A stretch of DNA of 64,000 bases from a virus (IMGVR_UViG_3300032893_000012:1-64000), one strand, 5' to 3'. Counted from the stretch's first letter, positions 17,832-28,594 are shown. A program made the numbers and translations. Notes: generated from the letters alone by a model not told the origin.

Positions 17832-17902
17832 AGGTGTACAAGAAGGTGTACGGAAGTTGTACGGGACGGAAATTCCGTCCGGATGGGAAAAGGAGATCCC
17901 GA

Positions 17903-19336
17903 ATGACGATCAAAAACCCGAGCAAGTATCAGCTGGCCCTCTTTGAGAACGTTGCCAACGGAACCGGACATACCGTCGTTAAGGCAGTGGCCGGAGCTGG
18001 GAAGACCAGTTCAATTGTCGAGGCGCTTACTTATGTCCCACATGGTCTTCGAACCCTCTTCGTCGCCTTCAATAAGTCGATTGCGGAAGAGCTCAAGAAG
18101 CGCGCGCCGCACGGAGTCGAAGTCTCAACCCTTCATTCCTACGGCCTCAAGGTTATCACGCGGTCACTGGGGCGCCTACGCATCGACTCGCATCGAGTGG
18201 ACGACATGGTCAGCGCCATGCATGGCAAAGATTCGAAGACATGGGACATGCGTCGCGATCTCGCGAAAACCGTTTCGCTCGCAAAGGGGCAGCTCGCCAG
18301 CGACGAAGCCGATATCGACGCGATCATCGATACCTTCGGCATCGAGTCGGCTCGGAACGGATCTCGCGCTGCGTTCATCCAGGATGTGCTCAAGATCCTG
18401 ATCCAATGCACCGACGTCTCCGACGGCCGGATCGATTTCGATGACATGATCTGGCTTCCGGTCGTGTTGAACCTTTCTCAACCGAAGTACGACCGGGTGT
18501 TCGTCGACGAGACCCAAGACCTGAACGCAGCACAGATCGAGATGACGCTGCGCGCGGTCAACGACAATGGTCGGATCTGCGCCGTGGGCGACCCTAGGCA
18601 GGCCATCTACGGGTTCCGCGGGGCGGATTCGGCAGCCGTCGACAACGTGGTGAGCCGGCTCAAGGCGACCGTGCTGCCGCTCAGCGTCTGCTACCGCTGC
18701 TGCAAGGCGGTCATCCGGGAGGCGCAGGAAGTGGTTCCGGAGATCGAGTACGCGCCGGACGCAGACGAGGGATCGGTCAGCGAGGTAACCGTATCGGAGA
18801 TGAAGAAGAACGCGCGCGCCGGAGATTTCATCCTGAGCCGAACGAACGCGCCTCTCATCTCGCTCTGTATGTACTTCCTCAAGAACGGACGCCCTGCGAG
18901 TATTCAGGGGCGCGACGTCGGTGCCTCGCTCGCGGCATTCGTCAAGAAGAGTAAGGCGCCGACCGTGGGAGCCCTTCGCGACTACGTCGAGGAGTGGCGC
19001 GGGATCGAGGTTGCCAGGCTCGCCGCCAAACACCGCGATACGCAAGCTGTCGACGATCGCGCGGAGTGCATTCTGGCGCTCAGTGAGGACGCGATGACCG
19101 TGTCCGACGTGCTCGAGAGCATCGAGTCGCTGTTTGCCGACAAGGACGAGCACTCGAGGATCGTACTGTCGTCGACGCACAAGGCGAAGGGACTCGAGCG
19201 AGATCGGGTGTGGATGCTCAACAGCACGTACCGGAGACGACCGGGGGCGGAAGAGGACAACCTGACCTATGTGGCTATTACACGGGCTCGGAAGACTCTC
19301 TTCATTGTCGAGGGTAGCGTGGGGCAGAAAAAGTGA
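17903..19336 (+). CDS. UvrD/Rep-like SF1A helicase
   Basis: AVAGAGKT, VAFNK, STLHS, VDETQD, VGDPRQAIYGFRGA, STHKAKGLE, YVAITRA; AGGAG RBS. Confidence 0.93.
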   Translation: MTIKNPSKYQLALFENVANGTGHTVVKAVAGAGKTSSIVEALTYVPHGLRTLFVAFNKSIAEELKKRAPHGVEVSTLHSYGLKVITRSLGRLRIDSHRVDDMVSAMHGKDSKTWDMRRDLAKTVSLAKGQLASDEADIDAIIDTFGIESARNGSRAAFIQDVLKILIQCTDVSDGRIDFDDMIWLPVVLNLSQPKYDRVFVDETQDLNAAQIEMTLRAVNDNGRICAVGDPRQAIYGFRGADSAAVDNVVSRLKATVLPLSVCYRCCKAVIREAQEVVPEIEYAPDADEGSVSEVTVSEMKKNARAGDFILSRTNAPLISLCMYFLKNGRPASIQGRDVGASLAAFVKKSKAPTVGALRDYVEEWRGIEVARLAAKHRDTQAVDDRAECILALSEDAMTVSDVLESIESLFADKDEHSRIVLSSTHKAKGLERDRVWMLNSTYRRRPGAEEDNLTYVAITRARKTLFIVEGSVGQKK

Positions 19337-19776: not shown

Positions 19777-20106
19777 ATGTTCAGGCGTGACACATCGAAA
19801 AAATGTGAGCGCTGTGGAGCTCCAGGAGAATCCTATCCAATGGTTGGACTTCCGTGCGTGTTCGTTTTTAGGGTCGATTTCGATCGAATGGAAAATCATT
19901 CTCCAAAGGAGACCAGGCTTCGGGCTATCTTCGCCGGGGAGACTTGTGAGGCAGCCCTGATTCAGTCAGAGCGTTTCATCGCGCTGGAACGCACGGAAAA
20001 TCAGGAATACAAAGGTTACGACGGCAAGACCTATCCCTATTGGTATGTCGAGCATGGCGTTATCGGCGAGCCGATCGATAAAACAAGGACGATCATTGGG
20101 ATATGA
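19777..20106 (+). CDS. hypothetical protein
   Basis: operon packing. Confidence 0.5.
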   Translation: MFRRDTSKKCERCGAPGESYPMVGLPCVFVFRVDFDRMENHSPKETRLRAIFAGETCEAALIQSERFIALERTENQEYKGYDGKTYPYWYVEHGVIGEPIDKTRTIIGI

Positions 20107-20128
20107 CTGTTTTCATAGGAAAAAAGAA

Positions 20129-20353
20129 ATGAGGACTGGCGGCCGCATGTCGATCGAACTCTCCGGCGCGGAAGCGCGGGTGCTCTTCAACGAGATCGGT
20201 GACATTCCGAAACTTCTTGTGGGACCAAAGCTCCTCGAGCTCTACGTTCGACTCAGTAATATGCTCGATTTGAACGAAGAGGCTCACACTAAGAGCAGAA
20301 AACTAAAGTCGCCGGTGTCGGGGAATTCAGGGTCCTCGGCGCCGGCGCAGTAA
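20129..20353 (+). CDS. hypothetical protein
   Basis: operon packing; start uncertain. Confidence 0.4.
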   Translation: MRTGGRMSIELSGAEARVLFNEIGDIPKLLVGPKLLELYVRLSNMLDLNEEAHTKSRKLKSPVSGNSGSSAPAQ

Positions 20354-20369
20354 CTCTACTGGAGGAAAA

Positions 20370-21365
20370 ATGGCATACGCTTGTCGAATTCTAGCTGACT
20401 CGATCTCTCCCGCTGGCCACCGACTCACGAGCTTTGAAGTTACATTTCCGCGTATTGTGTTGGCCGAATTCAATACTCATTGCATGCTATCGCGCAACAG
20501 CGCCTCGAGTCGTGCCATCCCAGTCGCCAAGCGAATCGATGCTGTCGAGACTGATCCATTCGTTCCGGAATCGTTTGGTCGAAACCAGAAGGGTATGCAA
20601 CCTGGCGAACCTCTCGACAGCAAAGATGCGGCGGCAGCGCAGCTGGATTGGCTAGACGCTCGTGATGAGTGCATCCTTCGGGCGTCGAGTCTTGCTTCGC
20701 GTGGCGTGCATAAGCAGTACGCAAACCGCCTCCTCGAGCCATTTTCGTGGCATACGGCCGTGATCACGGCGACCGAATGGGACAACTTCGAACACCTTCG
20801 GTGCAATCCGATGGCGCAGGGTGAGTTCCAGAAAGCGGCGCAGCTCATGATGGCGGCGCGGACAAACAGCGAACCGCGCGCGCTCAACTGTAATGAGTGG
20901 CACTTGCCGTACGTCGAGCCTGACGCAGAGGTGTTTACTCTCAATTCGGTTGGATTGGATCCTTGGAAAGTCTCTGTCGGACGTTGCGCTCGTGTTTCGT
21001 ACCTCACTCAAAATGGCGTACGAGACCCAGCCGAGGATGTAGCGCTCGCTGATCGTCTCCTCGAAAATGCTCACATGAGCCCTTTCGAGCACGTTGCGCG
21101 ACCGATGACCGATACCGAGCTCGCTATCACCAGATCGTTCGATGTTGCGGTAAGCGATGGACCTATCTTGCGATACGGGTGTCCGCCGTCCATTCCGGCT
21201 CCGCGCGTATGCGGCGCAGCATGCGACGATCCATCGAAAAATCACATCTCTTTCGTGCGTGGCCCGCTCCATTACTCAGGCAAATTGAATGGCTGGATCT
21301 CTAGACGCGCGTTCGTGCATGGTGAGCACGACATCCTCGGGTATCGAAGTCAAGTTCACGGGTGA
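20370..21365 (+). CDS. thyX: FAD-dependent thymidylate synthase (phage-type ThyX)
   Basis: RIVLAEFNTHCMLSRNSASSRAIP, HKQYANRLLEPF, RCARVSY, HMSPFEHVA; GGAGG RBS. Confidence 0.88.
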   Translation: MAYACRILADSISPAGHRLTSFEVTFPRIVLAEFNTHCMLSRNSASSRAIPVAKRIDAVETDPFVPESFGRNQKGMQPGEPLDSKDAAAAQLDWLDARDECILRASSLASRGVHKQYANRLLEPFSWHTAVITATEWDNFEHLRCNPMAQGEFQKAAQLMMAARTNSEPRALNCNEWHLPYVEPDAEVFTLNSVGLDPWKVSVGRCARVSYLTQNGVRDPAEDVALADRLLENAHMSPFEHVARPMTDTELAITRSFDVAVSDGPILRYGCPPSIPAPRVCGAACDDPSKNHISFVRGPLHYSGKLNGWISRRAFVHGEHDILGYRSQVHG

Positions 21366-21369
21366 AAAC

Positions 21370-23025
21370 ATGTTGACACTTTCTAGACCAGCATATTTGG
21401 AAACGTCAGAGATCTCGCTCTCTCAGGAGTGCTCGTCCGCACGCTGGACGTACCATCGTCTGCTCGATTTCGAGCAGGAACACCAACGAGTACTCGACGC
21501 CGCAGCGGAAACCATCGCGCCAGGGATCGTGCGCATCGGACGCATCGTGGCACGCCTGGCGAGACGAGCACGTCGAGCAGAACACACGTCCGCAGGAGCG
21601 TGGTGTCCGAACCCGCGACCTGAGCTCGCTGACCGACTCCGTGAAAAGCTCGTGGAGCTACGGGTACAACGCAATGCAGATCCGCGATGGAAAGTCGCTC
21701 TCGGATGGGCTGACGAGGAGGTTGGTGAGTCGAAAGCTGTTCGACGACGGCGTGCGAAATCGCCCGACAAGGTCAAGCGTCGCAAGGGTGAGACTGACGA
21801 AGCATTCGCGAAACGGTTCGAGCTTCTCACGCACGACGAGACCGATGAACACTACGGGGAGAAGCTCACCAGCCAACCGCGCAGGACGCGACGTGAGGCA
21901 TATCGCACAGAGCTCTACGCGACTCGGCGCATTTATTGGGGAACATGGAACGCTTTGGTGCGGAGCGTCGATCAGGCTCGGAAGGATGTCCTGAAAGCGC
22001 GCAAGGTTGGCATGCCGGCGGATTTGCGGCGTCCCAAGTACCGCGATCCGGTGACGCTCGCGGCCGACAAGGGCGGCTTCAGAATCGTGGAACGAGGGTC
22101 CGTTTGGTGGACGATCGAACTACGAATCGGCGTCGCGGACGAGTGGGTTCGCTTCCGCGCGAAGTGCGGAACGTGGCACGACGTACCGAGCGGCGCGAAC
22201 ATCCGTACATTGAAGCTCACCCGCCGGAAGGATGGCGAGCGTTGGGCCTACTCGGTCAGCATGGCGATCGAGATGGAGAAGCAATCGATCCCGCGCGCGG
22301 AGTCACGAATGGTGGCGTTCGACTGGGGCCACCGCGAACATGGACATCCGCGCTGGCGAGAAGGTATTCGTGTCTTCACATGGCTCGGAGACGACGGCGC
22401 AATCGGTGAGGTTCTCATTCCAGCGGAATGTCGGGATGCGCTCGACGAGATCGACTCACTGAAGAGCCGTGTAGATACGGCCTACGACGCGCGCCGCAAG
22501 ACACTCGGACTTTCGCACAAGAATCGATTTTTGTATCGACGCGAACTGATGCGCTCGGGCGTCCGCACTGCCGAGGAGACTGATTGGCTTCGGTGGGAGA
22601 TGCGATACGAGAGAAGGATCGCTGCGCGACGAAAGCGCATCATGAATGTGCGGCGCGAGCTCTATCTGCGAACGGTGCGAGATCTTCGATCTCGTTACGC
22701 GATCTTCGCCTTCGAGGATGAGAGCGTTGCTCAAATCAAGGTAAAGCAGAAAGATGAAGAAATGAAGCGCCGACAGCGGAGCACCAGGGACATCTCGGCG
22801 CGTTACGAGTTCGTGAGTCTGTGCGAGCGGTTCGGTGCCGAGATTTTGACCGTACCTGCTCGCAACACTACGAAGGAGTGTCCGAACTGCGGCGTGCTCG
22901 CGGAAAATGGCCCGGAATTGTTGATCGCGTGTCCTGGATGTGGGGTCGTTCGTGACAAAGATCGCGGTGCTGCGAGGGTCATTCTCGCTCGGGCGACGGA
23001 GGCGCTCGCAAACCGTGCTGCATGA
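21370..23025 (+). CDS. compact type V CRISPR effector (TnpB-derived, Cas12m/V-U1-like), 551 aa
   Basis: RuvC-I VAFDWG, RuvC-II FAFEDE, Zn finger TTKECPNCG...ACPGCG, RuvC-III RDKDRGAARVI; YWGTWN motif; array begins 31 nt after the stop; probable ATG at 21370, just after thyX. Confidence 0.88.
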   Translation: MLTLSRPAYLETSEISLSQECSSARWTYHRLLDFEQEHQRVLDAAAETIAPGIVRIGRIVARLARRARRAEHTSAGAWCPNPRPELADRLREKLVELRVQRNADPRWKVALGWADEEVGESKAVRRRRAKSPDKVKRRKGETDEAFAKRFELLTHDETDEHYGEKLTSQPRRTRREAYRTELYATRRIYWGTWNALVRSVDQARKDVLKARKVGMPADLRRPKYRDPVTLAADKGGFRIVERGSVWWTIELRIGVADEWVRFRAKCGTWHDVPSGANIRTLKLTRRKDGERWAYSVSMAIEMEKQSIPRAESRMVAFDWGHREHGHPRWREGIRVFTWLGDDGAIGEVLIPAECRDALDEIDSLKSRVDTAYDARRKTLGLSHKNRFLYRRELMRSGVRTAEETDWLRWEMRYERRIAARRKRIMNVRRELYLRTVRDLRSRYAIFAFEDESVAQIKVKQKDEEMKRRQRSTRDISARYEFVSLCERFGAEILTVPARNTTKECPNCGVLAENGPELLIACPGCGVVRDKDRGAARVILARATEALANRAA

Positions 23026-23056
23026 TAGCGAAATCACTAGAGGTCTCTTGGGGCCT

Positions 23057-25596
23057 CTATCGACAGCTGCGTGGAGCTTCGAACACCACGACTCCGCCTC
23101 CGAGCGCCGCGCCGCCGTCGCGGCGGCGGCTATCGACAGCTGCGTGGAGCTTCGAACACCACGACGGAGCGCGTCGTCCACCGTGCACCGAGTATGGCAC
23201 CTATCGACAGCTGCGTGGGGCTTCGAACACCACGACAAGTAGCGCCGCTGGCCGGCGGCCGATGCCGATATCATGCTCTCAACAGCTGCGTGGAGCTTCG
23301 AACACCACGACCCGAAGAGCCGACATGCGCGGCCGACGAGCCCGCTACTCTCACAGCCGCGTGGGGCTTCGAATGCCACGACGTCGAGTTCGGCGGACCA
23401 AGGAGGATCGCGCCCGTGGCATTCAACAGCCGCACGGGGCTTCGAGTGCCGTGACGGTGCGCTCGGGGTCGGCATCTGTCTCAACAGCTGCGTGGGGCTT
23501 CGAGTACCACGACGAGGAGTGGTCTCGGCTCATTCCCCACGCCATTGTCTCTCAACAGCTGCGTGGAGCTTCGAGTACCACGACCAGGAGCACGTCGCTC
23601 TAACTCAACAGCTGCGTGGAGCTTCGAATGCCACGACGGAGACGACGAGGAGGCCAATTTTCTCTCAACAGCTGCGTGGAGCTTCGAAAGCCACGACAAG
23701 CCGCAGGTGCAAAGCCACGCTGGCTTGCACGACTCTCAACAGCTGCGTGGGGCTTCGAATGCCACGACCACTGGTGACCCACGGCGAGCGGATAGAGCCG
23801 CTGCGGTCTCTCAACAGCTACGTGGAGCTTCGAGTACCACGACGTGACGCGGGCGGTGTGGCAACAGCCGCGCAGAGCTTCGAATACTGCGACGGGGTCG
23901 AACCCAATGTCCTCCTCAATAAGCTGCGTGGAGCTTCGAATGCCGCGACTACGGGCAGATTCTGGACCTTCAGTGGCCGCGCGGGGCTTCGGGTACCGCG
24001 ACAACGCGATGCATCGTTGGTTTTGCCTTTCCGGCTATCGAAAGCTGCGTAGAGCTTCGAATGCTACGATCAACTCAACTCAGTCAGTCTGATCTATCAA
24101 CAGCTGCATGGAGCTTCGAATGCCGTGATGCAAGCTTGAAGAGCGGACCAATACTGCGACTCGGTGATTCGAGCCACAGCCGCGTGAGGCTTCTAATGTC
24201 ACGACCTCGGCGCTATGCCGTCTCTGCCACTAATAGCTCTCAAATAGCCGTGCTAGGCTTCGAATACAGCAACCAGGACGAAAAGTCCGTGAAGATTTTC
24301 GCGATGTCAATCAACATCAGTATTGGACTTCCTCTCAACAGCCGCGTAGGGCTTCGAATATCTCGACATCTGAAACCTCTCGCGCCAGTTAAAAACAGCT
24401 GTGTGGAGCTTCGAATGCCACGACTCGGTCAGCCACGTCAGTCTTTGGACCCGGATCTAATCAACAGCCGTACGGGGCTTCGAGTGCCGTGGACTACAGA
24501 ACGGAGCGCGTCACGCATTCCGCGACGAGCTCATCAACAGCCGCGCGGGGCTTCGAGTGCCGCGACTTGCTGCCAAGGAGCTATCAACAGCTGCGTGGAG
24601 CTTCGAATGCCACGACACGATGCACCGCCCTTCCCACGCGACCGCGCGACGAGCTCTCAACAGCTACGTGGAGCTTCGAGTACCACGACGCGGCGGGTTT
24701 CCGCGGAACGTTTCCACTTTCGGCACATCTCAACAGCTGCGTGGAGCTTCGAGTACCACGACAGCCGCTCCGTGTAACCGTCCTTCCGGTTCGCGAACTC
24801 TCAACAGCTATGTGGAGCTTCGAATGCCACGACCAGCTGCCCTCGCGCGGACGGATTACCGTCGAGGCCGGCTCTCAACAGCTGCGTGGGGCTATATCAA
24901 CAGAGAGCTTCGAATGCCGCGACTACGGGCAGATTCTGGACCTCAATAGCCGCGTGGGGCTTCGAAAATCACGACCGCGAGCTGATCGCAGCCATCCGAG
25001 ATCAACAGCTGTGTGGAGCTTCGAAAGCCACGACTGCGCGTCGCACACTGGTACCCGTCTCTCAACAGCTGCGCGGAGCTTCGAGTGCCGCGACCACGAG
25101 CGTCACCCCGAAGGCGTGTCTGTCGTGCACCTATCAACAGCTGCGTGGGGCTTCGAGTACCACGACGGCGCGTGGACGGAACGAAGAGATCCCGTGATGC
25201 AGACAGATTCTCAACAGCTGCGTGGGGCTTCGAGTACCACGACATCTCATCTGCGCCGCCCCCCATCGAATTCTCAACAGCTGCGTGGGGCTTCGAGTAC
25301 CACGACACGGCGGCGTCCCATCCCCTGCTATAGAGGCGCGCGTGCTTCTCAACAGCTGCGTGGGGCTTCGAAAGCCACGACAACCGGCGGCCTCTTTCTT
25401 TTGTACCCGGCAGGCCTGACGCCTATCAACAGCTACGTGGGGCTTCGAAAGCCACGACCTAGCGCACGCCCCCCATCTGCGCTTGAAGCGCCGTGCTATC
25501 AACAGCTACGTTTCGAATGCCGCGACCAGGTCCTCCGCGATGGCGTCGCGCCGCTCGGTCCTATCGATAGCTGTGTGGAGCTTCGAATACCACAAC
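23057..25596 (+). CRISPR. CRISPR array, about 39 repeat units (some partial), 36-nt consensus CT(C/A)TCAACAGCTGCGTGG(A/G)GCTTCGA(A/G)T(G/A)CCACGAC
   Basis: repeats traced by eye from 23057-23092 to 25561-25596 with mostly unique spacers of about 14-58 nt; G.U-compatible variants indicate plus-strand transcription. Confidence 0.95.
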
Positions 25597-25628
25597 TCAG
25601 GGTTCCTTATTTCCTTCCCAGCAAAATA

Positions 25629-26456
25629 ATGAAAAATCAGAATCCAATCGCACACCCATTCCTGAAGTTCGCCGGCGGAAAGACGCAGCTCTTACCTGAG
25701 ATTCTTCCGCGCCTCCCCGCGAAGATTAAAACCTACTACGAACCGTTTCTCGGTGGCGGCGCGGTCTTTTTCGCGTTGGCTGCGGAGAAACGGTTCGAGC
25801 GTGCAGTACTCTCGGACGCAAACAAAGAGCTCATGAATTCGTACGCTGCTATAGCGGCTTCGTTGGATCGCATTATCTCATTGCTACGAGAACACGAGTC
25901 CGCGCACTCCAAGACATACTTTTACGAAGTGCGAGCCTCAGAAATGAAGCTAGCGATATCGAAAGCAGCGAGATTCATCTACTTGAATCGCACCTGCTTC
26001 AACGGTCTTTATCGCGTCAACAAGTCAGGCAAGTTCAACGTACCTTTTGGGGACCACAAGAATCCAACCATCTGCGACGAAGAGAACCTGCGTGCTGTAT
26101 CGGCGGCTCTAGAGAATGCCCACGTCTCGGCATGCGATTTCGAAGAAGCGATTTGGATTGCACGAAAAGGCGACGCGATATACTTCGATCCGCCGTACGT
26201 ACCCATCTCTGCAACATCTAACTTCGCTGCCTACACAAAAGATGGTTTCGGCCCCGACGAGCAAGAACGTCTCCGTCACGTCGCAGAGAAGCTCAGCACG
26301 AAAGGCGTGTTCGTTCTGCTATCGAACTCCGACACTCCGTTCGTGCGTGAGCTATACCAAGGGTTCGTCATCGAGAAGGTGCGCGCTCGGCGAGCGATCA
26401 ACTCAAAAGGAGACAAGCGCGGTGATGTTGGCGAATTATTGATTCGAGGTAGATGA
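25629..26456 (+). CDS. dam: Dam-family (D12 class) DNA adenine methyltransferase
   Basis: FLKFAGGK, YYEPFLGGGAV, YLNRTCFNGLYRVN, YFDPPY, LSNS; real start ATG 25629. Confidence 0.93.
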   Translation: MKNQNPIAHPFLKFAGGKTQLLPEILPRLPAKIKTYYEPFLGGGAVFFALAAEKRFERAVLSDANKELMNSYAAIAASLDRIISLLREHESAHSKTYFYEVRASEMKLAISKAARFIYLNRTCFNGLYRVNKSGKFNVPFGDHKNPTICDEENLRAVSAALENAHVSACDFEEAIWIARKGDAIYFDPPYVPISATSNFAAYTKDGFGPDEQERLRHVAEKLSTKGVFVLLSNSDTPFVRELYQGFVIEKVRARRAINSKGDKRGDVGELLIRGR

Positions 26457-26488
26457 GTATCCTGATTTAGGAGCCCTAGTTACATAGC

Positions 26489-26842
26489 ATGTCGTCTTTC
26501 AATATTTCTGGACTCATGCTCTTACCGCAACACAGGAAGAAACTAGAAATACTTGTTGCGGCAATCGCGCATCATCGCGTTCATGGTAGGTTTCCTACCC
26601 GCAGTATGGTTGCGCGCTTTCTAAGCGACGTCACAGGTAAAAAACGTAATCTAGATGACGTTTCACGTCTTGTTCACACTATGGATCGATGGAATGTGAT
26701 TTCCGTGACTACTCCGGTAGGAGAACGACTTCCACTGATCCACGTGTTAAGTCTCGGTTTTGATACGCTCACGGATCTTCTCGGGTATGATCCGCGTACG
26801 GAAGGAAATTCATGTCCCAAAATGCTGCCTCTAGAGGAATAG
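26489..26842 (+). CDS. hypothetical protein, possibly winged-helix
   Basis: HGRFPTRSMVARFL segment resembles a wHTH start. Confidence 0.45.
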   Translation: MSSFNISGLMLLPQHRKKLEILVAAIAHHRVHGRFPTRSMVARFLSDVTGKKRNLDDVSRLVHTMDRWNVISVTTPVGERLPLIHVLSLGFDTLTDLLGYDPRTEGNSCPKMLPLEE

Positions 26843-27090
26843 CACCTCTAATGGAAGAGCGTCGCAAGCTCGCCGAAGAGAATATTCGTCTGCGCGAACG
26901 TTGCGAGCGACTTCGCAAGGCGATAATTTTAACCGACGCCGATCACTGTCGCTGTGGAGCGTGCGGCGGGGAATGGCAAGCCGGCGCCACAGAATCGCAC
27001 TCATCCGGTTGCGTAGCTGCTTCAGACGAGCCTCGAGCGTCGAGTTCGACCCAGAACTCCCGCGGGGCGGCATCGAAGCGCAGGCGGTAA
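26812..27090 (+). CDS. hypothetical protein
   Basis: short coiled coil plus Cys/His cluster. Confidence 0.45.
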   Translation: MSQNAASRGIAPLMEERRKLAEENIRLRERCERLRKAIILTDADHCRCGACGGEWQAGATESHSSGCVAASDEPRASSSTQNSRGAASKRRR

Positions 27091-27118
27091 GCTGCTTCGA
27101 GCATCGCGGCTAACAGCA

Positions 27119-28594
27119 TCATAGAAATGTGATCGGCTGTGCCGAAACAGGCATTGCAAGCGCGAGCGAGAGCGTTCGCGTAAAGAGCCCGCTCAGGAAC
27201 GTCGGTGCTGGTACCGTCCCAGGTGGGAGTGGCGCATTCGGCGGTGGTCCAGCTGTTTCCGGTGCTACGAACTGTCCAAGCGCAGCCGAGAGCTGATCGT
27301 TCGTAGGTGGTACGGCGCTAAGGATCAAAAAGGCTGCAGTCGCCTTCTTATTGACCACGGATCCGATATTGCCTTTCGATCCGGCGTCGCTGTTGGTGCC
27401 AACATTGTTGGTTCCAGTGTTGTTGTTATCGATTCCGGTGAATGGGGCAGTAAGTTTCACGAGACTCGGTGTAACTGAATCGACGACATACGTCACTTCG
27501 ACCACGCCAAAGGCTGTGTTGTTCTGAAGCTGTTCGGCGAATTGAATAATACTCCCGGGAGAGAGTACGCCCGTCTGGTCGACTGTGGTTGGCACGTTCG
27601 TCGAACCTGTTGTGACGATGAAGTCGCCAGCGAGCTGCGGTTTGCTGTTCGACTGTTGAGCGATTGAAAAATACGACGGTGGTAGATATGCCAGATGTTG
27701 CGCAATGAGCAACTGTGCCTGGTCCGTGAGCGGACCTCTGAAATTATCTGGCGTCTTACTCGCTAGCGTTATCGACGGGAGATCCTCTGATAGTTCGACG
27801 AGCGTGATTTGGCCGACGCTGCTCCCGAAACTTCCGGCGGCAAGAATCTGCATTCCGTCGATCTGCGCGATGTCGACACTGCCAACAGCAAGAATCAACT
27901 GTACTGGACGTTTGCCGGTAAGCAACGCCGCCACGTTGAACGGGCCCCCGCCAGTTGAGTCGTGATAGGTCAGGATCACGGTATGTGCACCGGGACCTGC
28001 GGAGATAGCTGGCGACGTTGCGACGGCAGCTGTGTCCAAGGGTGACGTCGAATAGATTGCTGCCTTTGTCACCGGAGCAACAACTTCTTTGAATGCTCCC
28101 GTGTTACCCATCGTTCCTGTGTACGCAGACGAAAGAACGATCTGCGTCGAACTGAGAACTGATGCGACTGTGTAGGAGACACCGGGTTGCGAAAGAAACT
28201 GGATGGTATCGCCAGGATTGATCGACGGTAACTGCGTCGCACTCGTCGCGACTCCGAAAAGTCCTGTTGTCGGAAAGAACGATCCGGGAAGCGTAACCGT
28301 TCGACGTAGCGGATACGGAAGCACCGGCGGACTCGAGGTACGCGGATGGCATGGGAACGGAAACGGCGCAAAGGCTGTGGGACTCATATTGAGCGTCAAC
28401 GTTCGAGTCGCGACGTTCCCGAATGTAGTGGTCTGGTCAGTCGCAACGGTGAGCCCGAAGAGCTGTCCGAGCACCGGATCGGTGTGGATGTTCGTGTAGA
28501 GCGGCACGGCGGCGAGCTTCGTTGCAGCCCCGGCGGCTCCGAGAGAGGTTCCAGCGGCGTCGACGGCCCATGCGAGGATGATTTGGTCCGGCAT
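27119..28594 (-). CDS. Thr/Ser/Pro-rich, beta-rich putative virion protein with an internal duplication
   Basis: 491 aa; PGDTIQF..Q..YTVASV..IVLSSAYTG recurs as PGSIIQF..Q..YVVDSV..VKLTAPFTG. Confidence 0.7.
   Translation of the reverse strand: MPDQIILAWAVDAAGTSLGAAGAATKLAAVPLYTNIHTDPVLGQLFGLTVATDQTTTFGNVATRTLTLNMSPTAFAPFPFPCHPRTSSPPVLPYPLRRTVTLPGSFFPTTGLFGVATSATQLPSINPGDTIQFLSQPGVSYTVASVLSSTQIVLSSAYTGTMGNTGAFKEVVAPVTKAAIYSTSPLDTAAVATSPAISAGPGAHTVILTYHDSTGGGPFNVAALLTGKRPVQLILAVGSVDIAQIDGMQILAAGSFGSSVGQITLVELSEDLPSITLASKTPDNFRGPLTDQAQLLIAQHLAYLPPSYFSIAQQSNSKPQLAGDFIVTTGSTNVPTTVDQTGVLSPGSIIQFAEQLQNNTAFGVVEVTYVVDSVTPSLVKLTAPFTGIDNNNTGTNNVGTNSDAGSKGNIGSVVNKKATAAFLILSAVPPTNDQLSAALGQFVAPETAGPPPNAPLPPGTVPAPTFLSGLFTRTLSLALAMPVSAQPITFL

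What the first reader, a model, noticed from the sequence alone, without database searches (positions are those of the whole stretch)
23057..25596. CRISPR repeats diverge in sequence but co-vary to keep an H-type pseudoknot
Seen: the stem at repeat positions 14-18/30-34 (CGTGG/CCACG) shows paired changes: CACGG/CCGTG (23420), CGCAG/CTGCG (23858), CGCGG/CCGCG (23967, 24531, 25059), CGTAG/CTACG (24035), CGTGA/TCACG (24171), TGTGG/CCACA (25561). Most single changes give G.U pairs. A second helix (9-12/19-22) also co-varies: AGCT goes with AGCT or GGCT, and 9 of the 10 repeats with (A/G)GCC have GGCT (exception at 23858). The geometry (loops of 1, 0 and 7 nt) is that of an H-type pseudoknot. The repeat at 24332 breaks the main stem. 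Inference: each degenerate unit is under selection for structure, so this is a long-lived functional guide library rather than decay. Divergence may limit recombinational loss or tune guide abundance, or the units were collected from related arrays.
Basis: partly seen in the sequence, partly recalled or inferred. Interest (0 to 1): 0.88.

Follow-up and report, generated by a model that had tools for sequence, protein, structure and literature searches.

The report
Phage Cas12m array with drifted repeats
A 109-kb virus encodes a small Cas12m-type CRISPR protein followed by about 39 guide units whose repeats have drifted apart in sequence but keep, through paired base changes, the small RNA knot this protein family is known to grip. 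The fold is already known. This much drift inside one array is unusual but has been seen in other phages in this scan.

Summary
Window 23057-25596 (+) is a CRISPR array of 36 intact and 3 broken 36-nt repeats, directly downstream of a 578-aa Cas12m-like gene. It lies in a complete 109-kb virus record that has no cas1, cas2 or cas4.

- **Main stem (14-18/30-34):** all five pairs show double compensatory changes, and 98% of cells are paired. This exceeds column shuffles, slid-partner controls and a tree-aware null.
- **Strand:** non-Watson-Crick cells are 17 G.U against 4 mismatches on the + strand, but 3 against 18 on the - strand. Selection therefore acts on the + strand RNA.
- **Second helix (9-12/19-22):** only pair 12:19 varies. 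That association is no stronger than lineage linkage between unpaired columns such as 12:16. Its real support is homology.
- **Homology:** the layout matches the solved Cas12m crRNA pseudoknot (MmCas12m2, GoCas12m).

The pseudoknot is therefore known. Part of the "covariation" is retention of family-typical stems in a lower-GC middle block, which suggests a mosaic history.

What is unusual is the drift inside one array: 33 distinct repeats and 78% mean identity. The closest viral relative shows a milder form. Earlier agents of this scan reported the same pattern in other phage Cas12m arrays.

The parts
21289..23025 (+). cas12m-like effector gene (578-aa ORF; the database protein starts 10 codons later, 568 aa)
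   Evidence: TnpB-family C-terminus; best PDB sequence hits are UnCas12m4a (E 7e-18) and Cas12m (1e-9); the AF2 model (pLDDT 84) best matches Cas12m2 8hhl (E 2e-22) and GoCas12m 8pm4 (3e-20) over its full length, ahead of Cas12f and TnpB. D345, E476 and D556/D558 are conserved in 22 relatives.
23057..25596 (+). CRISPR array: 36 intact plus 3 broken 36-nt repeats, with spacers of 14-58 nt
   Evidence: The first repeat starts 31 nt after the cas12 stop codon. No copy lies elsewhere in the 109-kb genome.
23858..24566 (+). Middle block with the most diverged repeats, many carrying family-typical (ancestral-like) states, short spacers and lower-GC spacers
   Evidence: 23858, 23967, 24238, 24458 and 24531 are closer to the family consensus than to the window consensus; spacer GC is 0.55 here against 0.67-0.69 in the flanks (Mann-Whitney P 5e-5).
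24238..24273 (+). Strongly diverged repeat that keeps 4 of 5 stem pairs after changes at four stem positions on each side
24332..24367 (+). Repeat with a broken main stem (two mismatches and one G.U); the stem evaluates at +2.0 kcal/mol against -3 to -9 for the others
24872..24923 (+). Composite unit: the first 22 nt of one repeat fused to a truncated second repeat (recombination scar)
24905..24943 (+). Exact 39-nt duplicate of 23931-23969 (repeat 3' half, spacer, and start of the next repeat)
   Evidence: family D7, 100%; spacer self-match
25497..25527 (+). Repeat with a 5-nt internal deletion that removes part of the stem and the second helix

Best explanation
This is the guide array of a virus-encoded type V-M-like (Cas12m-like) CRISPR system. 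Inferred: the array is transcribed on the + strand with or just after the effector gene, and each unit gives a crRNA made of roughly the last 28-30 nt of a repeat plus the spacer that follows it. That repeat part folds into the Cas12m scaffold. A 4-bp stem (9-12 with 19-22) stacks coaxially on a 5-bp pseudoknot helix (14-18 with 30-34), with G13 as the one-nucleotide linker and AC before the guide. In the solved Cas12m2 complex the protein holds the two helices mainly by backbone contacts. Helix sequence is therefore free to change if pairing is kept, while the loop and stem core (GC at 10-11 and the run at 20-26) stays fixed. The virus has no cas1, cas2 or cas4, so nothing renews and homogenises the repeats. 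Units persist for a long time, accumulate point changes, small deletions and unequal-recombination scars, and are probably also exchanged with related arrays. Purifying selection on the RNA removes units that lose the fold. What is shown: the covariation, the strand-specific G.U excess, the column-specific constraint, the homology of effector and repeat to Cas12m, and the absence of adaptation genes. What is inferred: transcription, processing, loading, and that the units still act on targets.
For: Main-stem covariation in the window. The same stem covaries independently in 24 repeats from relatives' arrays (99% paired, 0/500 shuffles, 4 pairs with double changes). Non-Watson-Crick cells are 17 G.U against 4 mismatches for + strand RNA, and 3 against 18 for the - strand. 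Columns 9-12 and 20-26 have 4 changes against 33 expected, and the 5' tail is the most variable part. Positions 1-7 correspond to the disordered -36 to -30 segment of the Cas12m2 crRNA. The repeat layout matches published Cas12m crRNAs, in which the second helix also changes compensatorily between orthologues (GCC/GGC, GCG/CGC, CCC/GGG). The cryo-EM description gives a pseudoknot plus a coaxial stem. The effector fold is closest to Cas12m2 and GoCas12m. Cas1, Cas2 and Cas4 profiles find nothing in a record rated 100% complete. The nearest viral relative (L001, effector 75% identical, also without Cas1) has three fully compensated stem versions in one array.
Against: There is no expression, processing or binding data. 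No spacer has a match in the virus itself, in the fetched loci, or in the phage and plasmid collections, so current function is unproven. Three to four units are broken and two spacers are only 14 nt. Evidence for the second helix within this array is confounded by lineage. Other arrays of this clade, including a second one on a viral contig (L043), are homogeneous, so lack of adaptation genes alone does not force drift. The assembly could not be checked against reads.
Confidence: 0.75

Rival explanations
1. Mosaic origin. Most compensated variants did not arise in this array. They are repeat types that evolved under selection in other arrays or in the ancestor, and were brought together by recombination between related viral arrays. 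It is compatible with structural selection but changes where and when that selection acted.
For: Six divergent units are nearer the family consensus than the window consensus. Unit 23858 differs from the common repeat of L018, at positions 6-36, only at position 19. The diverged block sits in the middle of the array, flanked by two blocks of the derived type, which simple one-ended growth does not predict. Its spacers have lower GC. There is an exact 39-nt duplication and a composite repeat. L001 shows block-wise stem types.
Against: Within the middle block nearly every unit differs from every other. Several stem versions (15/33 A-U, 14/34 U-A, 17/31 U-A) were not seen in any fetched relative. 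No shared spacers with relatives were found. The sample of relatives is small.
Confidence: 0.4
2. A DNA-level mechanism without RNA selection. Template switching within quasi-palindromes during replication copies one stem arm from the other and restores complementarity automatically.
For: The stem is an inverted repeat, so such correction is conceivable. This rests on established knowledge of quasi-palindrome mutagenesis and was not tested here.
Against: The strand asymmetry argues against it: 17 G.U against 4 mismatches on the + strand but 3 against 18 on the - strand. DNA-level correction has no reason to prefer one strand. The stem is only 5 bp with an 11-nt loop. Invariant unpaired loop columns need selection anyway.
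Confidence: 0.03
3. Assembly artefact. The metagenome assembler concatenated or interleaved arrays of several strains, which inflates within-array diversity.
For: The contig is metagenomic. The exact 39-nt duplicate and the composite repeat at 24872-24923 could be assembly joins. Reads could not be consulted.
Against: Sequencing or assembly errors do not create compensated pairs. An independent assembly from another sample (L001/L004) also shows several stem types in one array. Spacers other than the one duplicate are unique.
Confidence: 0.07
4. Neutral decay of a dead array: the repeats are simply eroding.
For: Three to four units are broken, spacers are shortened, and no targets were found.
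Against: There is strong column-specific constraint (P about 2e-12), 98% of stem cells are paired, and the G.U bias is strand-specific.
Confidence: 0.03

Closest known systems
Type V-M CRISPR-Cas12m crRNA scaffold (MmCas12m2, PDB 8hhl/8hio, PMC10442227; GoCas12m, PDB 8pm4, PMC11013384)
   Same: 36-nt repeat. The 5' part is disordered or trimmed. A 4-bp stem stacks on a pseudoknot helix, with no nucleotide between the pseudoknot 5' strand and the stem 3' strand. The scaffold ends in AC before the guide. No tracrRNA is expected, there are no adaptation genes, and the effector has the same fold.
   Different: The pseudoknot helix is 5 bp, not 6. The loop is 7 nt, not 4. There is one linker nucleotide instead of a flipped A plus G. 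The effector is only about 16% identical over the structural alignment and keeps a D-E-D RuvC triad. The host is a virus, and the repeats within one array are highly diverged.
Compensatory base changes in CRISPR repeat stems between arrays and species (Kunin et al. 2007, PMC1896005)
   Same: The stem is kept by paired changes while its sequence differs.
   Different: That work compared consensus repeats of different arrays. Here the paired changes lie between units of one array.
Phage-encoded Cas12m next to arrays without adaptation genes (myxophage MV-1, bioRxiv 10.64898/2026.09.14.751636)
   Same: A virus-borne Cas12m with an intact RuvC triad, an adjacent array, no cas1/2/4, and no spacer targets found.
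   Different: That array is described as one consensus repeat with eight spacers. No repeat drift or covariation is reported. Whether the effector belongs to the same clade was not tested.
Degenerate trailer-end repeats of ordinary CRISPR arrays
   Same: Old repeats accumulate changes (general knowledge).
   Different: Here drift affects the whole array and is greatest in the middle, and pairing is maintained rather than lost.
TnpB omega/reRNA triplex-pseudoknot core
   Same: According to PMC11013384, the Cas12m scaffold resembles the triplex-pseudoknot core of TnpB guide RNA.
   Different: The scaffold here is much shorter and lies in a repeat-spacer array, not at a transposon end.

Membership tests
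Type V-M CRISPR-Cas (Cas12m) | Effector with the Cas12m fold (compact TnpB-derived RuvC protein of about 550-620 aa) | tested here: met
   the top Foldseek hits are 8hhl, 8hio and 8pm4 (E 2e-22 to 3e-20, full length), ahead of Cas12f (5e-13) and TnpB (about 1e-11); the best PDB sequence hits are Cas12m entries, but they cover only the C-terminal 140 aa.
Type V-M CRISPR-Cas (Cas12m) | Repeat with the Cas12m layout: short stem, linker, pseudoknot helix, stem 3' strand, loop, pseudoknot 3' strand, AC | tested here: met
   By inspection against the eight published crRNAs and the nucleotide-level description of the Cas12m2 structure. Both span 28 nt from the start of the stem to the end of the repeat.
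Type V-M CRISPR-Cas (Cas12m) | Pseudoknot helix supported by covariation | tested here: met
Type V-M CRISPR-Cas (Cas12m) | Second (coaxial) stem supported by covariation in this clade | tested here: inconclusive
   Only pair 12:19 varies in the window and its association equals lineage linkage. The helix is invariant in relatives except two U.G cases. It does covary among published orthologues.
Type V-M CRISPR-Cas (Cas12m) | No adaptation module next to the effector | tested here: met
   Cas1, Cas2 and Cas4 Pfam profiles find nothing in the 109-kb record.
Type V-M CRISPR-Cas (Cas12m) | Effector processes its own pre-crRNA and binds DNA without cutting it | not testable with these tools
   This needs biochemistry. 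The RuvC triad here is D-E-D, as in four of the eight orthologues characterised in PMC11013384.
CRISPR array | Regularly spaced direct repeats separated by unique spacers | tested here: met
   One spacer is duplicated, and spacer length is irregular (14-58 nt).
H-type RNA pseudoknot | Two helices in the order S1a-L1-S2a-L2-S1b-L3-S2b, with loop lengths able to span the grooves | tested here: met
   Loops are 1, 0 and 7 nt. The same topology is seen in the solved Cas12m2 scaffold. No experimental probing was done for this RNA.

The most novel reading that the evidence does not exclude
The array is not an updatable immune memory. It is a fixed, vertically inherited set of about 35 guide genes, each evolving as its own small RNA gene under purifying selection, which the virus uses with a Cas12m-type binder or nuclease against host or rival-element targets. 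Repeat drift is itself favoured, because only 26 of 630 repeat pairs share 25 nt or more of identity, and this protects the guide set from recombinational loss.
Probability: 0.25. Interest if true: 0.6.

Novelty: new variant of a known kind. Interest (0 to 1): 0.4.

Why it matters
The array works as a natural mutational scan of the Cas12m guide scaffold. It shows which positions must stay fixed (10-11 and 20-26, with 9 and 12 nearly so), which only need to pair (14-18/30-34), and which are free (1-8 and 27-29). This is directly useful for engineering Cas12m guides and non-repetitive multiplex arrays. It also explains why standard CRISPR finders would fragment or miss such arrays. Finally, together with the other phage cases seen in this scan, it suggests that virus-borne arrays without adaptation genes evolve as long-lived guide sets. 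The pseudoknot itself is not new.

Tried and rejected
- **Rfam:** a scan of 20000-28000 at E <= 1 gave no family.
- **Spacer targets:** no convincing matches in the virus's own genome or the fetched loci, and none in the phage or plasmid collections.
- **Lone repeats:** a structure-aware scan of both strands of the 109-kb genome found none outside the array.
- **Promoter and terminator scan:** nothing above chance.
- **Possible base triple:** position 8 is U together with 14:34 U-A in two units (P 0.01 uncorrected). I rejected it because position 8 and pair 14:34 lie at opposite ends of the coaxial stack, and the signal does not survive correction for 630 column pairs.
- **Position 12 as a flipped-out base:** I considered position 12 as the counterpart of the flipped-out A(-24) of Cas12m2, with a 3-bp second stem. 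This is not excluded; C12/A19 occurs only once.
- **Link between homogeneous arrays and adaptation genes:** only L001 and the L032 genome could be searched, and both lack Cas1, so this is uninformative.
- **Input error:** one search failed on a wrong reading frame of my own and was not repeated for that gene.

Full report
**What is there.** Window 23057-25596 (+) is a repeat-spacer array that starts 31 nt after the stop codon of a 578-aa ORF at 21289-23025 (+).
- A Hamming scan plus inspection gives 36 intact 36-nt repeats and three broken ones: a composite at 24872-24923, a 5-nt deletion at about 25497-25527, and a broken stem at 24332.
- Spacers run from 14 to 58 nt.
- The repeats are unusually diverse: 33 distinct sequences, mean pairwise identity 78%, and a median longest shared identical run of 11 nt.
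- No further copy exists on either strand of the window or of the whole 109,321-bp genome.
- The genome is an IMG/VR virus record rated 100% complete.

**Check of the observation.**
- In the main stem (14-18 with 30-34) all five pairs show changes on both sides. The non-Watson-Crick cells are 8 G.U and 3 mismatches, and those mismatches lie in two units, 24332 and 24238.
- For both helices together, 98.7% of cells pair against 92.6% after shuffling (0/500). Six pairs carry double changes (3/500). Sliding the 3' partner by 1-3 columns gives only 0-2 such pairs.
- Repeats in an array are related by descent, so I also re-dealt each column's inferred substitutions over an NJ tree, 5000 times. For the main stem no run reached the observed pairing, and P(5 double-change pairs) = 0.004.
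- RNAalifold independently predicts exactly this stem.
Its stem has four changed positions on each arm and still forms 4 of 5 pairs.

**The second helix.** Three points limit the inference.
- Only pair 12:19 varies. Pairs 10:21 and 11:20 are invariant, and 9:22 varies once, to G.U.
- The tree-aware null gives P about 0.001 for pairing.
- A scan of all column pairs shows that 12:19 (mutual information 0.24) is no more associated than the non-pairing columns 12:16 (0.27) and 12:32 (0.25).

This reflects two repeat lineages. One is family-typical with C12, C16, G19 and G32. The other is derived with U12, U16, A19 and A32. Within this array the second helix is therefore compatible with pairing, and passes through a U.G intermediate in 7-8 units, but it is not independently demonstrated.

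**What the system is.**
- The ORF has a TnpB-type C-terminus. Its best PDB sequence hits are Cas12m entries.
- An AlphaFold2 model built on 22 homologues (pLDDT 84) matches Cas12m2 (8hhl, E 2e-22; 8hio) and GoCas12m (8pm4, 3e-20) over its full length. These are ahead of Cas12f and TnpB.
- D345, E476 and D556/D558 are conserved.
- Cas1, Cas2 and Cas4 profiles find nothing in the virus.
- The protein has at least 120 metagenomic relatives.

**Comparison with the known scaffold.** The Cas12m2 cryo-EM paper describes a 36-nt repeat-derived scaffold with these features:
- nucleotides -36 to -30 are disordered;
- A(-24) is flipped out;
- G(-23) pairs non-canonically with A(-2);
- a pseudoknot helix joins -22..-17 to -8..-3;
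- that helix stacks coaxially on a stem;
- the helices are held mainly through backbone contacts.

The Mm crRNA printed in Table S5 of PMC11013384 fits this description nucleotide by nucleotide. It places the stem at -28..-25 with -16..-13 (by inspection). The window's repeat has the same order of elements and the same 28-nt span:
- stem 5' strand (9-12)
- one linker (13)
- pseudoknot 5' strand (14-18)
- stem 3' strand with no gap (19-22)
- loop (23-29)
- pseudoknot 3' strand (30-34)
- AC (35-36)

Among the eight published orthologues the short stem changes compensatorily: GCC/GGC, GCG/CGC, CCC/GGG. GoCas12m is described as a triplex plus pseudoknot.

**Evidence that selection acts on the RNA of each unit.**
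- Inferred changes per column are very uneven. Positions 1-8 have 13, 7, 11, 6, 4, 3, 2 and 5 changes. Columns 9-12 and 20-26 together have 4 of 108 changes, where 33 are expected (P about 2e-12). Loop positions 27-29 have 4, 6 and 4. The free 5' tail coincides with the disordered or trimmed part of Cas12m crRNAs.
- Non-Watson-Crick cells are 17 G.U against 4 mismatches if the + strand is the RNA. They would be 3 against 18 for the - strand. This fixes the transcribed strand as that of the effector gene and argues against a purely DNA-level origin of the paired changes.
- The stem evaluates at -3 to -9 kcal/mol in all units except 24332, which is +2.0.

**Relatives.** Arrays next to homologues in viral, metagenomic and genomic contigs carry the same repeat family.
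- In 24 distinct repeats from these arrays the main stem again covaries: 99% of cells paired, 0/500 shuffles, and four pairs with double changes. G.U intermediates link the versions. The second helix is invariant apart from two U.G cases.
- Most of these arrays are homogeneous, including a second array on the viral contig of L003/L043.
- The closest viral relative, L001, has an effector 75% identical and no Cas1. Its single array holds three fully compensated stem versions arranged in blocks.

**History of the array.** Six of the divergent units (23420, 23858, 23967, 24238, 24458, 24531) are closer to the family consensus than to the window's own consensus. Unit 23858 differs from the common L018 repeat, at positions 6-36, only at position 19. 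Five of the six lie in the middle of the array (23858-24566).
- There the repeats are most diverged, short spacers are common, and spacer GC is 0.55 against 0.67-0.69 in the flanks (P 5e-5; genome GC 0.59).
- The array also contains an exact 39-nt duplication (23931-23969 = 24905-24943) that ends in a composite repeat.

Growth from one end does not put the oldest-looking units in the middle. Recombination within the array, and probably with related arrays, has therefore shaped it. Part of the within-array covariation is retained or imported variation rather than innovation unit by unit. Several versions (15/33 A-U, 14/34 U-A, 17/31 U-A) were nonetheless not seen in any fetched relative.

**Limits.**
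- Expression, processing and loading are untested.
- Reads could not be consulted, and contigs of further homologues could not be fetched.
- No spacer target was found.
- The idea that drift protects against recombination is physically plausible, since only 26 of 630 repeat pairs share 25 nt or more. Cause and effect cannot be separated, and recombination scars are present.

**Known or new.**
- The Cas12m pseudoknot was published in 2023-2024.
- Compensatory changes between repeat families were published in 2007.
- A phage-encoded Cas12m with an adjacent array was reported in a 2026 preprint.
- Three literature searches found no description of strong repeat drift with compensation inside one array.
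- Earlier agents of this scan reported the same pattern in several other phage Cas12m arrays. I did not re-test those cases, and they are leads only.

I rate this a clear and statistically sound instance of an unusual variant of a known system, of moderate interest.

Noticed in passing
window 23858-24566: Spacers in the middle block have markedly lower GC (0.55) than those on either side (0.67-0.69; genome 0.59). This coincides with the most diverged repeats and many short spacers. It suggests a block of different origin or age.
   Followed up: partly
window 23931-23969 and 24905-24943: An exact 39-nt duplicate covers a repeat 3' half, a spacer and the start of the next repeat. The second copy is joined to a half repeat at 24872-24893. 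This is either a recombination scar or an assembly join.
   Followed up: partly
window 24274-24331: The 58-nt 'spacer' contains a decayed fragment resembling the 5' half of a repeat just before the repeat at 24332.
   Followed up: no
window repeats 24238 and 25561: The two units with U14-A34 also have U instead of C at position 8. Uncorrected P is 0.01, and geometry makes a base triple unlikely. Unexplained.
   Followed up: partly
L003/L041/L043 (one 70.6-kb viral contig): This relative carries a degenerate set of four repeats after its cas12 gene. Elsewhere on the contig it also has a separate homogeneous 11-unit array and a lone repeat.
   Followed up: no
L012 5898-6094 and L014 6674-6850: A sub-group of relatives has a repeat with a loop 2 nt shorter and another compensated stem version. 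The loop length of the scaffold is therefore not fixed.
   Followed up: no
window 17834-19336, 20370-21365 and from about 25631: The array's neighbours are a UvrD/Rep-like helicase and a ThyX-like protein, both weak NCBIfam hits. By eye only, a Dam-like DNA methyltransferase starts right after the last repeat.
   Followed up: no
window 23093-23129 and 25528-25560: The first and the next-to-last spacers share a 24-nt reverse-complement match with 3 mismatches in very GC-rich sequence. It may be a low-complexity coincidence.
   Followed up: no
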